From positions 9,624 through 73,623 of the forward strand of contig JBBSGK010000003.1 of the NCBI GenBank assembly GCA_038254115.1: 64,000 nucleotides of DNA, written 5' to 3'. Origin of the DNA: Candidatus Levyibacteriota bacterium (lineage in GTDB: Bacteria; Patescibacteriota; Microgenomatia; Levybacterales; UBA12049). The position numbers and the translations under genes are program-made. How positions within the stretch are numbered: position 1 is the first letter of the stretch; each line of letters opens with the position of its first letter. Positions 45,130 through 48,648 of the stretch are shown piece by piece. Under the pieces are notes generated by a model that was not told the origin of the DNA, did no database searches, and saw nothing but the letters and a program-made list of their open reading frames with translations.

Positions 45130-45699
45130 ATGAAAATCAAAAAAGAACATCTGATCTTGATTATATTCTCAGCAGTGATGCTTCTTATAGTTTTTGCTAT
45201 TGCGTACTTGGCATTGACAACTCCCACGAAACCGAATAATAAACCTATTGGTACTATTTCTCCTTCCCCTGTTTACACTGGCCACATTGCTATTTCTCCT
45301 ACTCCTGTAAATCCAGGAGTACCACCTGTCTCTTACAGTTCTGATGCAACTGATAGGCTAATAGAAAAAGTCCAAAACCATCCGCAGCTTTCGGATTCTG
45401 ATATTGCTGCAAAGCAAAAAATACTCTCTTTTTTGCCACAGGGCAAAACATCCGGATATGTATATCAGTCCTCAACTGTTCAAATTGAATACCTCAAATC
45501 CCCGGACGCTTTCCTGGCCGAAATCCTGACCATTGATATCGCGCAATCTAAAAAAGACGCAGTCAACTGGTTTAAGGTACAAGGAATGAGTCAAAAGGGT
45601 ATTTGCGACCTCCCTGTTTCTTTTTATCTCAATTCTAGAGTCGCAAATCAATTAAGAAATTTAAATATTAAATTTAGTCCGTTGGCTGAAGGGTGTTAA
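45130..45699 (+). CDS. secreted/membrane-anchored hypothetical protein
   Basis: 189 aa, N-terminal signal anchor, Pro-rich linker. Confidence 0.4.
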   Translation: MKIKKEHLILIIFSAVMLLIVFAIAYLALTTPTKPNNKPIGTISPSPVYTGHIAISPTPVNPGVPPVSYSSDATDRLIEKVQNHPQLSDSDIAAKQKILSFLPQGKTSGYVYQSSTVQIEYLKSPDAFLAEILTIDIAQSKKDAVNWFKVQGMSQKGICDLPVSFYLNSRVANQLRNLNIKFSPLAEGC

Positions 45700-46304
45700 A
45701 GGTTTATCATAAATATATGAATAACATATTACAAAAACTTAAAAATCCTTATATTTTACTGGGGTTGGGCATAGGAATATTTTTGGTTTTCTTCTTCTTC
45801 GCTCTCATTTCGACCCAGCCTGTGCAACCAAAAAACGGCCAAATCCCAATAAATCAAACCGCACCCGGATCTTCTAAAACAACAAATGAGATTTTACCCA
45901 AAGAAGACTATTATGGCGATTATGGCCCTTCCGGCTTACAGGGGGGGCAAAAAGTAGAAGATCTCGCAGGCGGAACTAAAAAGTATACGTCTTCCTCTTC
46001 AAATCCTGCACGGACAAATTTAATTATTGCAAAAGATAATAGAACTATTTATCAGAGATCCATTCCTCTGAAAGGTGCTGATATTCCACTGCAAAATTTT
46101 ATTGGGCTTTTTGGTCAAGCGGACAAAATAATTGACGGGCCTGATTTTTATGGTATTGGTGTTACAAGTGAGTATATTTATGCCCGGATAGGAATCGCCA
46201 TAGTTGTGGATAATCAGAGCAAGCAGGTTGTTGAACAACACTTTTTCAAACCTACAACTGTGGATGAGTACATTAAAAACTATGGCAATGATAGTTTTCA
46301 CTGA
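45693..46304 (+). CDS. secreted protein carrying one copy of a novel about 50-aa FYG...YIY...KP..EDY.K.YG.D repeat domain
   Basis: N-terminal TM/signal; GPDFYGIGVTSEYIYARIGIAIVVDNQSKQVVEQHFFKPTTVDEYIKNYGND matches two repeats in the 47593 gene. Confidence 0.45.
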   Translation: MLKVYHKYMNNILQKLKNPYILLGLGIGIFLVFFFFALISTQPVQPKNGQIPINQTAPGSSKTTNEILPKEDYYGDYGPSGLQGGQKVEDLAGGTKKYTSSSSNPARTNLIIAKDNRTIYQRSIPLKGADIPLQNFIGLFGQADKIIDGPDFYGIGVTSEYIYARIGIAIVVDNQSKQVVEQHFFKPTTVDEYIKNYGNDSFH

Positions 46305-46310
46305 ATAAAT

Positions 46311-47591
46311 ATGTTTTTTACTTTTATTTTCTCGCTTTTCCTGGCATTATCTGCGCTTTTTACCGCTCCTTCTCTTGGGTATTTTAACGCAAATGCTATT
46401 GACTTAGTTTTCCCTTTAAAAGCTGACAAATCTGTAGTACTTGCAGGCTCATCTGCTAATGGGGAGAATGCCGTCTGGTGTCATGAAAGCCAATCTAATT
46501 GTCATCATGATTATAATGCTGCTGATATTTTCGCCGTAACCGGTACAACTGTTGTTGCTGCTGTGTCTGGTAAAATAACACAGGCTCATCAAACAAGCTC
46601 TGTTGGTTACACTGTGCATATTTTAGGTGATGATGGGACAATTTATTATCATGCACACATGGGGGGAATAAAAGTATCTATCGGACAAAATGTAAAGCCC
46701 GGCGATGAGATAGGAGCGGTGGGAACATCTGCGGACGCGTCGGGGACACAGCCCCACCTTCATTTCGATATGATCCCAAATAGCTCAGAATTCAATGGAC
46801 TAAGACCTAACTGCAGCGATGCTGCTTGCCAGCAATACCCCTTCATCAATCCCCAACCCCAATTAATAGCTGCTTTTAATGGGGGCACCCTGGGTGGACC
46901 TGGTGGTGGTGGAGCTCTCAAGAGCAATTGTGTTATCACAAAAATCGGCAACCCTCCAAATCCACCCGTGGTCCCCCCAGAATGCCCGGCAGCAAGTGGC
47001 GGAGGTGGGGTCGGTGGCGATGGAACGCCAGGTCAACCAGGACCGAAGCCCCCTGACTATCCCCCTGACTTACGTCAAGCAATTATTAATAAATTTGGTA
47101 TTACAATGAATGGATTCGATGATGAACACCTTCGTTGGGCGTGGGAAAAATTTTGGGATATATCGGGTAGTAAATTTACCAGCTACGTGCAAGGCGCCAT
47201 AGTTGATGCTCAACCCGGCCAAGGCACATCAAGACAAGTAGGTTGTCCGCCTAGCCCCACAGTTCAAATAAGTCAGTATTCAACTGACTATGTGTTTAAA
47301 TTTTTGATTACCCATGAGCTTGGGCATGCAATCCAAATTTGCCATCCTCGTGACCAGGTAAAATATAACGAGCATGAAAATGCACGGGCAACTGAAGGAG
47401 GAGTGAGCAGATATGGGGAGACTTTACTAAATGAGGATTATGCGGATACAATGGCATATGCTGTAAACCCTACAGAAACAATGTCTTCCAATGGTGGGCC
47501 TAATATTGCTGTACATCCTTTTTTTCCCGCTCCTGCACCCAAGCCTTTACATTATAATAATGTAGTGTTACCTGTGTTATTTAATAAATAA
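46311..47591 (+). CDS. secreted M23 (LytM/lysostaphin-type) peptidase fused to a C-terminal HExxH zinc-metalloprotease-like domain
   Basis: signal peptide; M23 motifs CHHDYNAADIFA (HxxxD) and PHLHFDM (HxH); C-terminal ITHELGHAIQICH (HExxH). Confidence 0.7.
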   Translation: MFFTFIFSLFLALSALFTAPSLGYFNANAIDLVFPLKADKSVVLAGSSANGENAVWCHESQSNCHHDYNAADIFAVTGTTVVAAVSGKITQAHQTSSVGYTVHILGDDGTIYYHAHMGGIKVSIGQNVKPGDEIGAVGTSADASGTQPHLHFDMIPNSSEFNGLRPNCSDAACQQYPFINPQPQLIAAFNGGTLGGPGGGGALKSNCVITKIGNPPNPPVVPPECPAASGGGGVGGDGTPGQPGPKPPDYPPDLRQAIINKFGITMNGFDDEHLRWAWEKFWDISGSKFTSYVQGAIVDAQPGQGTSRQVGCPPSPTVQISQYSTDYVFKFLITHELGHAIQICHPRDQVKYNEHENARATEGGVSRYGETLLNEDYADTMAYAVNPTETMSSNGGPNIAVHPFFPAPAPKPLHYNNVVLPVLFNK

Positions 47592-47592
47592 A

Positions 47593-48648
47593 ATGTTTTT
47601 ATTAGAATTAATTAAAAAACATAAAATAATTGCTGGAATTTCTTTACTGATGTTTATTATTGTGGGCATGATAATTTTTAATATTTTTAATATAAAACGT
47701 TCTGATTCTCCTGCTAATCCGGATTTAGGCATCTCAAAATTCTTACCTAGCAGCAACCAGAATAATACTTTTTCTTCATTACAAAAAACTGTTCCTGGAA
47801 AAACAACTGTTCAAGATGTGGAAAGAACTGTTCCAAGAATTCTGAAGAAGGATGTACTTCCTGGAGGGGGGGTGCAATACTCTTTTCAGTCTGAATTGAT
47901 TTCAAGGCCTAATCAAATACAAACAAAAAATGGTGTTGCGGTATTTGAAAAGGAACTAATCCCAGAAAATCCGTCCGCAAGAGGTTATGTGTTAATTTCT
48001 ACATATATTAATTCTTTAGGTAAACCGGAAAAAATAATTAAAGGTTCTAATTTTTATGGATGGTCTATAAATACTTATGTTTATCCCAATAAAGGCTTCG
48101 CATTCATAGGAAATCCCAATACAGATGAGGTGTTAGAAATACATATTTTTAAACCTCTTTCTGTGGAGGATTATGTAAAAATGTATGGTGAAGATATAAA
48201 TCAAAATCTTCAGCTTCATAATGATGATCCAATCTCCAATATTTACGATGTAGGAAGTATTATTAAAACTGAAAACTTTCGTGGAGTTCAAAAAAGAGAA
48301 GTGTTAAAAGATGGTCGTGTGAAATATGTAGTTGAATCTATTAATCCTGCTCGGCCTGATATATTTATTACAGATAAATCTGGTATTGTGGTATATAAAA
48401 GAACTATAGCTCCAAATAGTTCTGTTTCTTTGACTGAATTTGTAAAACTTTATGGTCAAGCTAAATGGATTTTTAAAGGTTCTGTATTTTATGGAGTTAA
48501 TTCTGTTATGTATATTTACGCAGATCGAGGATTTGCTTTTGTTGCCAGTTCCCAAAGTAACGTTATTCAAGAAAATATATCATTTATACCGATGAGAATT
48601 GAGGATTATGTAAATAAATATGGGGATGATATACCCACTCAGCCCTGA
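47593..48648 (+). CDS. secreted protein with two copies of the FYG-YIY-GFAF repeat domain
   Basis: signal anchor; repeats GSNFYGWSINTYVYPNKGFAFIGNPNTDEVLEIHIFKPLSVEDYVKMYGED and GSVFYGVNSVMYIYADRGFAFVASSQSNVIQENISFIPMRIEDYVNKYGDD. Confidence 0.45.
   Translation: MFLLELIKKHKIIAGISLLMFIIVGMIIFNIFNIKRSDSPANPDLGISKFLPSSNQNNTFSSLQKTVPGKTTVQDVERTVPRILKKDVLPGGGVQYSFQSELISRPNQIQTKNGVAVFEKELIPENPSARGYVLISTYINSLGKPEKIIKGSNFYGWSINTYVYPNKGFAFIGNPNTDEVLEIHIFKPLSVEDYVKMYGEDINQNLQLHNDDPISNIYDVGSIIKTENFRGVQKREVLKDGRVKYVVESINPARPDIFITDKSGIVVYKRTIAPNSSVSLTEFVKLYGQAKWIFKGSVFYGVNSVMYIYADRGFAFVASSQSNVIQENISFIPMRIEDYVNKYGDDIPTQP

What the first reader, a model, noticed from the sequence alone, without database searches (positions are those of the whole stretch)
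45693..48648. Novel about 50-residue repeat domain (FYG...Y[IV]Y...GFAF...KP..[ED]DY[IV]K.YG[DE]D) in paralogous secreted proteins flanking the M23 gene
The domain occurs once in the 45693 gene and twice in the 47593 gene, with identical spacing of aromatic and acidic positions. I cannot assign it to a known family.

The paralogues bracket the peptidase genes and carry signal anchors. They may be wall-binding or immunity/regulatory partners of the hydrolases.
Basis: seen in the sequence. Interest (0 to 1): 0.55.

Follow-up and report, generated by a model that had tools for sequence, protein, structure and literature searches.

The report
Undescribed membrane-anchored partner of secretion-system wall peptidases
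The three repeats are real copies of an unnamed, roughly 125-150-residue extracellular domain that ultra-small (CPR/Microgenomates-type) bacteria encode at the end of their type IV secretion operon, always next to a cell-wall peptidase, and whose predicted fold resembles known enzyme-inhibitor domains.

Summary
Gene A (45693-46304) has one copy and gene B (47593-48648) two copies of one domain (BLASTP E 4e-20 and 2e-16; shuffle z 28-32).

Pfam, NCBIfam and PDB sequence searches give no match. An exhaustive HMMER search finds 791 representative proteins, mostly about 205 aa with an N-terminal membrane anchor and one domain.

AlphaFold (pLDDT 96) predicts two tandem helix-plus-four-strand units. 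The best PDB fold matches are CAP_assoc_N and a putative BLIP protein. ECOD places those families in one homologous group, and the BLIP-like ones belong to Pfam clan PepSY, but the scores are borderline.

In 15 of 15 loci the gene is the last one of the known chromosomal Patescibacteria type IV secretion operon. It sits directly after a wall-hydrolase gene and converges on dnaN-dnaA. Subtype tracks the peptidase: B1 with an HExxH module (10/10), B2 with an M74/M23 peptidase (6/6). The window has both pairs, each fused.

Most likely it is a membrane-tethered binder or regulator of the adjacent peptidase. That function is inferred, not shown. It is a new family of a known fold in a known system, of moderate interest.

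The parts
45693..46304 (+). Gene A: single-domain family member. It is 203 aa from the GTG at 45693; the likely true start is the ATG at 45717, giving 195 aa.
   Evidence: ORF list. HMM hit iE 2e-43. Start-codon context.
45747..45815 (+). Gene A N-terminal membrane anchor (residues about 19-41).
   Evidence: Kyte-Doolittle 19-residue maximum of 2.9 at residue 21. Read directly from the sequence.
45936..46301 (+). Gene A domain copy (residues 82-203), a divergent B2-like type.
   Evidence: BLASTP. HMM. Bit-score matrix: closest relative P0007 at 96 bits.
46311..47591 (+). Two-module wall peptidase gene between A and B. M23 domain at residues 69-161, Cys-loop linker, HExxH zincin-like module at residues about 254-426.
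   Evidence: Pfam Peptidase_M23 at 7.7e-19. The HExxH module is homologous to stand-alone or fused modules in 9 other loci.
46929..46985 (+). Conserved Cys-loop motif C-V-I-T-K-I-G-N-P...C in the linker of the peptidase.
   Evidence: Regex scan: one occurrence per locus, always in the hydrolase gene located beside the family member genes, in 9 of 15 loci (10 with a looser pattern).
47070..47588 (+). HExxH module (HELGH at about residue 335, then a conserved NEDYAD).
   Evidence: Alignment A5 with invariant H, E, G, H and E140. Weak reprolysin match in the PDB, E 8.9e-4.
47593..48648 (+). Gene B: two-domain family member (351 aa). It starts 2 nt after the peptidase stop codon, and its 3' end overlaps the convergent dnaN by 10 nt.
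   Evidence: ORF list. Sequence. HMM finds two domains, iE 1.6e-51 and 7e-50.
47626..47694 (+). Gene B N-terminal membrane anchor (residues about 12-34).
   Evidence: Kyte-Doolittle maximum of 2.6 at residue 12.
47776..48207 (+). Gene B domain 1, B1-type (GNPNTDEV loop), residues 62-205.
   Evidence: Alignments A1 and A2. AlphaFold model with pLDDT 96. Closest to P0002 and P0020, 147-161 bits.
48265..48645 (+). Gene B domain 2, B2-type (KWIFKGS...YGDDIPTQP), residues 225-351.
   Evidence: Alignment A1. Closest to P0005, P0007 and P0004-D2, 118-135 bits.
45130..45699 (+). Conserved small membrane-anchored protein ('sm189'). It is the operon neighbour upstream of A and has two invariant Cys.
   Evidence: Orthologues in L005, L008, L015, L017, L019 and L020. 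Alignment A4. Its model has no PDB match.
43265..45088 (+). Large secreted protein with a DUF11/CLIPPER repeat and an SGNH-like middle region. A C-terminal SLT-like motif (ES...GLYQM) makes it a VirB1-like wall hydrolase candidate.
   Evidence: Pfam DUF11. Homology to the SLT_3 and CLIPPER proteins at the same operon position. The SLT assignment of the C-terminus is inferred from the motif.
38670..43245 (+). Core of the type IV secretion operon: VirB2-like pilin (38670-38996), PrgI/VirB3-like (39059-40387), TrsD/TraC-like (40391-41068), VirB4 ATPase (41065-43245).
   Evidence: Pfam and NCBIfam. Orthologous genes carry PF18895 and PF26593. Literature: PMC12102498.
48639..51263 (-). dnaN (48639-49748) and dnaA (49899-51263), convergent with the operon. 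They mark the origin region.
   Evidence: ORF list. Synteny in all loci. Cumulative GC-skew minimum at 44-46 kb.

Best explanation
**What it is.** A and B belong to an undescribed protein family that, in the few named records seen, comes from Microgenomates-type CPR bacteria. The typical member is about 205 aa. It has a short cytoplasmic N-terminus, one membrane anchor, a proline/serine/threonine-rich linker and one extracytoplasmic domain of 125-150 aa. The domain is predicted to consist of two tandem units, each a helix packed on four antiparallel strands, plus a C-terminal helix. This is the PepSY/BLIP-like (cystatin-like) architecture.

**Where it sits.** The gene is the terminal gene of the chromosomal monoderm-type (MPF_FATA-like) type IV secretion operon, next to dnaN-dnaA.

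**Proposed mechanism (inferred).** The tethered ectodomain binds the wall metallopeptidase encoded immediately upstream. B1-type domains would pair with the HExxH zincin-like module. B2-type domains would pair with the LAS-fold peptidase (M74-like, or M23 in this window). The domain would then hold, chaperone or inhibit the enzyme at the membrane, so that peptidoglycan is cut only where the secretion apparatus or pilus must pass. This resembles PepSY propeptides restraining M4 zincins and membrane-anchored YpeB partnering the SleB cortex lytic enzyme.

**This window.** Both peptidase modules are fused into one gene (M23+HExxH) and both cognate domains are fused into one gene (B = B1+B2). A is an extra, divergent B2-like copy.

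**Shown versus inferred.** Shown: the family, its topology, the predicted fold, the synteny and the subtype-peptidase association. Inferred: physical binding and regulation.
For: **Real family.**
- Three significant copies in the window.
- 14 relatives from one word-indexed search and 41 from a second; 791 representatives at E<=1e-3 in an exhaustive search.
- 176 of 186 members examined have an N-terminal hydrophobic anchor; 183 have one domain.

**Fold.**
- AlphaFold gives pLDDT 96.1 and pTM 0.90, with topology H-E4-H-E4-H.
- The three best PDB matches are 4h0a, 4ifa (both CAP_assoc_N) and 3d4e (putative BLIP protein), with Foldseek probabilities 0.99, 0.98 and 0.63.
- ECOD unifies CAP_assoc_N with the BLIP-like families (BLIP, DUF3862, PepSY-like) in one homologous group; the BLIP-like families form Pfam clan PepSY CL0320. 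[quoted passage not shown]

**Context.**
- In 15/15 independent loci, including the window, the order is VirB4 ... wall hydrolase, family member, then convergent dnaN and, where the contig extends that far, dnaA.
- Across these loci dnaN identity falls to 33% and VirB4 identity to 57%.
- In the window the genes are tightly coupled, with gaps of 2-6 nt or overlaps.

**Pairing.**
- B1-type occurs with the HExxH module in 10/10 loci. B2-type occurs with an M74-like, M23 or weak-M23 peptidase in 6/6 loci.
- Among close relatives (VirB4 about 89% identical), L003 and L005 lack both the HExxH module and a B1 domain, while the window has both. L016 and L017 show the same lack, but their VirB4 identity was not measured. 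This points to joint presence or absence.
- In the window both sides are fused: M23+HExxH and B1+B2.
- Otherwise unrelated upstream hydrolases share a Cys-loop motif, a candidate common docking element.
Against: - No interaction or inhibition was tested, and no multimer prediction was possible.
- No sequence-profile link to any PepSY-clan family was found. CAP_assoc_N matched 1 of 46 members at E 0.17.
- The subtype-peptidase association is largely confounded by phylogeny and rests on 15 loci.
- The locus sample is biased: most loci were reached through B1-type patterns or through close relatives.
- L015 has three copies but no HExxH module, so a strict one-domain-per-module rule does not hold.
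- The fusion of the domain to an alpha/beta-hydrolase-like protein (P0127) fits a general targeting module equally well.
Confidence: 0.42

Rival explanations
1. The family is a structural subunit of the secretion apparatus itself. It would be a functional stand-in for the bitopic VirB8/PrgL-type scaffold, which is largely undetectable in Microgenomatia. It would have no specific role in controlling the peptidases.
For: - It has the same gross architecture as VirB8/PrgL: about 200 aa, an N-terminal anchor and an extracytoplasmic alpha/beta domain.
- It is invariably present in the operon (15/15 loci).
- In pCF10 the VirB8-like gene prgL follows the hydrolase gene prgK (own knowledge).
- PMC12102498 reports few VirB8 homologues, nearly all in class ABY1, and suggests that 'a completely different protein' may do the job.
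- The neighbouring sm189 protein is not NTF2-like either, so that slot is not visibly filled.
Against: - The predicted fold is two helix-plus-four-strand units, not NTF2-like. No VirB8, TraM, TcpC or PrgL structure appears among the listed top 50 of 561 Foldseek matches.
- Copy number (1 to 3) and subtype vary with the hydrolase repertoire. That is unexpected for a fixed-stoichiometry core subunit.
- The domain can be fused to an unrelated secreted enzyme (P0127).
Confidence: 0.25
2. The domain is a ligand- or wall-binding (or host-surface-binding) module. It would anchor proteins to peptidoglycan or to the host cell surface at the contact site, rather than binding the peptidases.
For: - It has an extracytoplasmic location and many conserved aromatic residues.
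- Two conserved hairpin loops (GSxFYG, NPNTDE) lie at one end of unit 2.
- It occurs as a C-terminal module on an alpha/beta-hydrolase-like protein with a Tat-type signal (P0127).
Against: - It shows no similarity to known wall-binding domains (LysM, SH3b, SPOR, PG_binding) in Pfam scans.
- Families of the matched fold group, as cited from ECOD, are mainly protein-binding or inhibitory.
- The subtype-peptidase covariation is not explained by a generic wall binder.
Confidence: 0.15
3. The proteins are immunity proteins. The adjacent peptidases would be effectors delivered by the secretion system against the host bacterium's wall, and the tethered domains would protect the producer's own wall.
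For: - The layout is toxin-immunity-like: a hydrolase gene followed by a small cognate membrane-exposed protein, with subtype matching.
- The predicted fold is inhibitor-like.
- CPR bacteria are thought to live as epibionts, and the operon lacks relaxase genes (PMC12102498).
Against: - The peptidases carry ordinary N-terminal signal or anchor sequences, suggesting Sec export rather than delivery by the secretion system (sequences).
- The operon position matches that of housekeeping VirB1-like hydrolases in monoderm systems.
- There is no polymorphic or variable toxin signature, and the pair is single-copy and syntenic.
Confidence: 0.1
4. The repeat is a chance or compositional resemblance, or a common known domain that was missed.
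For: None beyond the low-complexity linkers preceding the domains.
Against: - E-values of 1e-16 to 1e-23 and z = 16-32 against shuffles.
- Hundreds of homologues.
- A confident structure prediction.
- No Pfam, NCBIfam or PDB sequence match.
Confidence: 0.01

Closest known systems
PepSY domains, including the YpeB-SleB pair of Bacillus spores and the M4 (thermolysin-type) propeptides (Pfam clan PepSY CL0320)
   Same: - The unit is a helix packed on a four-stranded antiparallel sheet, used in tandem.
- YpeB is also N-terminally membrane-anchored, extracytoplasmic and encoded with a wall-lytic enzyme it partners (own knowledge).
- PepSY restrains HExxH zincins. Here the commonest neighbour is an HExxH module.
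   Different: - No sequence-profile match to PepSY families.
- The context is a type IV secretion operon of CPR bacteria, not sporulation or a propeptide.
- The partner enzymes differ (M23, M74-like, and a novel HExxH module).
CAP_assoc_N domain (N-terminal domain of bacterial CAP/SCP proteins; PDB 4h0a, 4ifa) and BLIP-like proteins (PDB 3d4e; BLIP)
   Same: - These are the best structural matches to the AlphaFold model (Foldseek probabilities 0.99, 0.98 and 0.63).
- They are tandem alpha/beta4 units.
- ECOD unifies them in one homologous group.
   Different: - TM-scores are only 0.33-0.53 and E-values 0.02-0.19, with sequence identity 7-16%.
- The inter-unit geometry evidently differs (rmsd 9-13 A).
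- CAP_assoc_N has no known function.
- BLIP is a soluble beta-lactamase inhibitor.
VirB8-like scaffold proteins of monoderm type IV secretion systems (PrgL, TraM, TraH, TcpC)
   Same: - Bitopic proteins of about 200 aa with an extracytoplasmic alpha/beta domain.
- Encoded in the secretion operon downstream of the hydrolase gene.
- TcpC also has two tandem domains (own knowledge; PMC12102498).
   Different: - VirB8-like proteins have an NTF2-like fold. This family does not, and no such structure appears among the listed Foldseek hits.
Patescibacteria MPF_FATA-like type IV secretion operon (Quinonero-Coronel et al. 2025, PMC12102498)
   Same: The window carries exactly this system: VirB2-like pilin, PrgI/VirB3, TrsD, VirB4 and wall hydrolases next to dnaA/dnaN.
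   Different: The sections of that paper read here classify neighbours by existing HMM libraries, and the figure legend says genes without a match are drawn grey. This family matches no such library model, so it is presumably among the unassigned neighbours.

Membership tests
PepSY / BLIP-like superfamily (Pfam clan CL0320; ECOD cystatin/monellin homologous group) | The unit is an alpha-helix packed against a four-stranded antiparallel beta-sheet, often in tandem. | tested here: met
   The AlphaFold model (pLDDT 96.1) has H19-25 with E29-34, E40-44, E53-58 and E61-68. It then has H81-88 with E93-98, E102-110, E115-120 and E125-132, followed by H137-144. This is a prediction, not an experiment.
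PepSY / BLIP-like superfamily (Pfam clan CL0320; ECOD cystatin/monellin homologous group) | Statistically significant structural match to an established member. | tested here: inconclusive
PepSY / BLIP-like superfamily (Pfam clan CL0320; ECOD cystatin/monellin homologous group) | Sequence-profile match to a member family (PepSY, BLIP, SmpA_OmlA, DUF3862, DUF4309, PepSY-like, CAP_assoc_N). | tested here: not met
   hmmscan of A, B and all 46 aligned members found only CAP_assoc_N in 1 of 46 at E 0.17. Profile-profile comparison (HHpred) against these families could not be run.
PepSY / BLIP-like superfamily (Pfam clan CL0320; ECOD cystatin/monellin homologous group) | Binds or inhibits a partner enzyme. 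| not testable with these tools
   Only indirect evidence exists: adjacency to a hydrolase in 15/15 loci and subtype-peptidase covariation.
VirB8-like type IV secretion scaffold | NTF2-like fold of the extracytoplasmic domain. | tested here: not met
   The predicted topology is two alpha/beta4 units. No VirB8, TraM, TcpC or PrgL chain appears among the listed top 50 of 561 Foldseek PDB matches.
VirB8-like type IV secretion scaffold | Bitopic membrane protein encoded within the secretion operon. | tested here: met
   176 of 186 members have an N-terminal anchor. The gene is the terminal operon gene in 15/15 loci.
Known peptidoglycan-binding domains (LysM, SH3b, SPOR, PG_binding_1) | Pfam profile match. 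| tested here: not met
   No such hit, even at E<=10 across 46 members.
Any curated protein family (Pfam-A, NCBIfam) | Score above the family's gathering threshold. | tested here: not met
   Precomputed Pfam is '-' for all hits of both word-indexed searches.

The most novel reading that the evidence does not exclude
The family could be a previously unrecognised class of cognate, membrane-tethered regulators of wall-breaching metallopeptidases, built on the PepSY/BLIP fold. Matched pairs (B1 with a novel HExxH zincin-like module, B2 with LAS-fold M23/M74 peptidases) would form a 'safety catch' specific to the secretion system. Alternatively, it could be the long-missing VirB8-equivalent core subunit of the Microgenomatia apparatus, realised with a completely different fold.
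Probability: 0.25. Interest if true: 0.6.

Novelty: new member of a known kind. Interest (0 to 1): 0.4.

Why it matters
- The type IV secretion system is essential for epibiotic growth in the one genetically tractable CPR lineage, as cited in PMC12102498. In Microgenomatia, core parts such as VirB8 and VirB6 cannot be found (PMC12102498).
- This work defines a conserved, always-present but unannotated operon component and gives it domain boundaries, a confident structural model and a testable partner.
- If the pairing with the peptidases is real, it would show how cells with tiny genomes keep wall-cutting enzymes under control at a secretion or pilus site.
- It would also add a new family, worth a Pfam entry, to the PepSY/BLIP inhibitor-like superfamily.
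- If the pairing is not real, the family is still a useful marker gene for this operon type.

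Tried and rejected
**Libraries and searches that failed or found little.**
- The PDB sequence-profile search with the family gave only an insignificant FlgT match (E 0.16). I treat it as chance.
- The search for related loci failed with alignment A1 because it has no sufficiently conserved stretch.
- With alignment A3 it found only 3 genome loci and 5 metagenome loci.
- The exact look-up of protein B's own contig found nothing on record.
- The cluster-name look-up gave only 'Candidatus Daviesbacteria' for one member.
- There was no tblastn hit in 72,556 plasmids or 50,697 phages.
- There were no tRNA or Rfam hits in the window to help with taxonomy.

**Ideas tested and not supported.**
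- Internal duplication: unit 1 and unit 2 of the domain show no detectable sequence similarity (hhalign).
- Is the neighbour sm189 the missing VirB8? Its model (pLDDT 81.5) has no meaningful PDB match. This was a dead end.
- Is the roughly 75-aa C-terminal extension fused to some members (P0131, P0132, P0146, P0167) homologous to sm189? BLAST gave nothing. hhalign gave P = 0.0055-0.02 over the expected region. This is a hint only and is not claimed.

**Explanation rejected.**
- I rejected 'common known domain' and 'chance similarity'.

Full report
**1. The observation**

The region 45693-48648 holds three co-directional, tightly packed genes:
- Gene A: 45693-46304, 203 aa.
- A peptidase gene: 46311-47591, 426 aa.
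- Gene B: 47593-48648, 351 aa.

The copies align significantly.
- BLASTP aligns A residues 82-200 to B 229-346 (38% identity, E 4e-20) and to B 85-201 (31%, E 2e-16).
- Against 1000 shuffles, Smith-Waterman z-scores are 28-32 for the full domain.
- An HMM built from the copies finds exactly three copies in all six frames of the 64 kb window.

The homologous unit, however, is about 125 aa, and about 150 aa with an N-terminal helix present in B-D1 and most relatives.

Both proteins carry one N-terminal hydrophobic anchor preceded by basic residues. This implies a membrane-tethered, outward-facing domain.

Gene A more plausibly starts at the ATG at 45717.

**2. A family without a name**

- Pfam and NCBIfam give nothing for A or B.
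- They also give nothing consistent for 46 aligned members scanned at E<=10.
- A PDB sequence-profile search is empty apart from a chance-level match.
- Word-indexed searches found 14 relatives with protein B as query and 41 with the domain alignment.
- One relative is annotated 'hypothetical protein [Candidatus Daviesbacteria bacterium]'.
- An exhaustive HMMER search of 1.84 billion representatives found 791 proteins at E<=1e-3, of which 431 are at E<=1e-10.
- Of 186 members examined, 183 have one domain and 3 have two. 176 have an N-terminal anchor, and the median length is 205 aa.
- There are no tblastn matches in plasmid or phage collections.

**3. Predicted structure**

- With a 46-sequence alignment, AlphaFold2 models B residues 55-208 at pLDDT 96.1 and pTM 0.90.
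- The model has two tandem units, each a short helix followed by four antiparallel strands, and then a C-terminal helix.
- The two units share no detectable sequence similarity.
- Conserved residues cluster in two hairpins of unit 2 (GSxFYG and NPNTDE) and in the C-terminal Y..YG.D helix.
- Foldseek against the PDB gives no hit at E<=1e-3.
- The three best hits are 4h0a and 4ifa (the N-terminal CAP_assoc_N domain of bacterial CAP proteins) and 3d4e (a putative beta-lactamase-inhibitor protein).
- Their probabilities are 0.99, 0.98 and 0.63, with TM-scores of 0.47, 0.53 and 0.33.
- A 2025 ECOD curation paper unifies CAP_assoc_N, BLIP, SmpA_OmlA, DUF3862, DUF4309 and PepSY-like in one homologous group with PepSY and cystatin.
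- It puts the BLIP-like families (not CAP_assoc_N) in Pfam clan CL0320, and notes that the cystatin-like domains are commonly found in inhibitory proteins (PMC11836899).
- A phage protein in BFVD matches somewhat better (E 5.7e-4, TMq 0.56).

**4. Genomic context**

Upstream in the window lie the following genes:
- a VirB2-like pilin;
- a PrgI/VirB3-like protein;
- a TrsD/TraC-like protein;
- a CD1110-family VirB4 ATPase (385 bits);
- a large DUF11/SGNH/SLT-like secreted protein;
- a small conserved anchored protein (sm189).

Downstream, and convergent, are dnaN and dnaA, followed by rnpA, yidD and yidC.

This is the chromosomal MPF_FATA-like type IV secretion operon of Patescibacteria described in 2025. 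That paper notes its proximity to dnaA/dnaN and the scarcity of VirB8 and VirB6 homologues in Microgenomatia. It leaves genes without HMM matches unassigned (PMC12102498).

I recovered 14 further independent loci carrying family members. L021 duplicates L010.
- In all 15 loci, including the window, the order is VirB4, wall hydrolase(s), family member, then convergent dnaN, plus dnaA where the contig extends far enough.
- This holds even though dnaN identity to the window falls to 33% and VirB4 identity to 57%.

**5. The neighbour is always a wall hydrolase, and subtype tracks its type**

The gene directly upstream encodes one of the following:
- an HExxH module alone (L001, L010, L013, L014, L019);
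- an HExxH module fused to Amidase_2 (L008);
- an HExxH module fused to an SGNH-like region (L020);
- an HExxH module fused to an SLT-like region (L006);
- an HExxH module within a long protein (L018);
- an HExxH module fused to M23 (the window);
- an M74-like LAS peptidase (L003, L005, L016, L017);
- an SGNH plus weak-M23 protein (L015).

Members fall into subtypes. B1 has the GNPNTDEVYE loop, and B2 has KWIFKGS...DIPAQP.
- B1 co-occurs with the HExxH module in 10/10 loci.
- B2 co-occurs with a LAS-fold peptidase in 6/6 loci.

The window is the one locus with both. There both peptidase modules are fused (M23+HExxH) and both domain subtypes are fused (B = B1+B2).
- Its close relatives L003 and L005 (VirB4 about 89% identical) lack both the HExxH module and B1.
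- L016 and L017 show the same lack, but I did not measure their VirB4 identity.
- Two-domain proteins arose at least twice, because the first domain of P0004 and P0051 is a third subtype.

These associations support a cognate relationship. They come from few, partly related genomes.

**6. Mechanism**

- The best-supported reading is that the tethered ectodomain binds and regulates the adjacent peptidase.
- That regulation could be holding, chaperoning or inhibiting the enzyme during assembly of the secretion apparatus or pilus through the wall.
- This would parallel PepSY propeptides of HExxH zincins and the YpeB-SleB pair (own knowledge).
- Everything after 'the fold and context are as described' is inference.

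Rivals that remain open:
- a structural subunit standing in for VirB8, which fits the topology and operon position but not the fold;
- a wall- or host-surface-binding module, which would fit the fusion to an alpha/beta-hydrolase-like protein (P0127);
- immunity against delivered peptidase effectors.

**7. Verdict**

- The finding is real.
- It is a new sequence family of a known fold type, embedded in a recently described system.
- Interest is moderate.

Noticed in passing
window 46929-46985; L003 9365-9424; L005 9366-9428; L008 9136-9192; L015 8791-8850; L016 9372-9428; L017 8144-8200; L019 7364-7402; L020 7359-7406: A short Cys-bounded motif, C-V-[IV]-T-K-[IV]-G-x-P-(5-12 residues)-C, occurs exactly once per locus. 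It is always in the hydrolase gene beside the family member genes, whatever the catalytic domain (M23+HExxH, M74-like, Amidase_2+HExxH, SGNH+HExxH, SGNH+M23-like). It may be a shared docking or sorting element. A degenerate form is present in L001, and none was found in the five most divergent loci.
   Followed up: partly
window 47070-47588 (C-terminal half of the M23 protein); alignment A5: This is an unannotated HExxH module of about 180 aa. It has invariant H-E-x-G-H and a downstream conserved 'NEDYAD' that recalls the gluzincin NExxSD motif. It shows only weak matches to reprolysin-type metalloproteinases (PDB 1wni, E 8.9e-4) and to Pfam M57 (E 0.002). It appears stand-alone or fused to M23, Amidase_2, SGNH-like or SLT-like regions in 10 loci.
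   Followed up: partly
window 45130-45699: This small anchored protein ('sm189') is conserved at the same operon position in at least six other loci. One relative is labelled Candidatus Levyibacteriota. It has two invariant cysteines (C159 and C189, the C-terminal residue). Its AlphaFold model (pLDDT 81.5) has no meaningful PDB match, so it is another orphan operon component and is not VirB8-like.
   Followed up: yes
proteins P0127, P0177; P0131, P0132, P0146, P0167; P0059, P0165: There are rare alternative architectures of the family. One is a Tat-type signal plus an alpha/beta-hydrolase-like region (GxSxG 'AYSLGG') with the domain at the C-terminus. Another is a conserved C-terminal extension of about 75 aa (LPYY...YDKS...FGI). 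hhalign links that extension only weakly to the sm189 C-terminal domain (P = 0.0055).
   Followed up: partly
window 48639-48648; also L003, L005, L015, L016, L017, L019, L021: The 3' end of the last operon gene overlaps the 3' end of the convergent dnaN by 4-17 nt in the window and in several other loci. There is no room for a terminator between the two convergent genes.
   Followed up: no
L007, L008 (records CAZCCG010000001.1 and CAZCYO010000005.1): Two MAG records titled 'uncultured Gammaproteobacteria bacterium' carry this operon type. It has monoderm-type VirB4/PrgI next to dnaN-dnaA, and VirB4 is 71-74% identical to the window's. The taxonomic label is probably wrong.
   Followed up: no
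window 26211-29069: A run of small anchored proteins (178, 204 and 103 aa) is followed by a 459-aa protein with a Pro/Ser/Thr-rich C-terminal region and a hydrophobic C-terminal segment. By eye it looks like a type IV pilus assembly (PilN/PilO-like) cluster. I did not analyse it.
   Followed up: no
window 1-64000: No tRNA gene and no Rfam family at gathering threshold was found anywhere in the 64 kb. The cumulative GC skew reaches its minimum at about 44-46 kb, consistent with a replication origin near dnaA.
   Followed up: no
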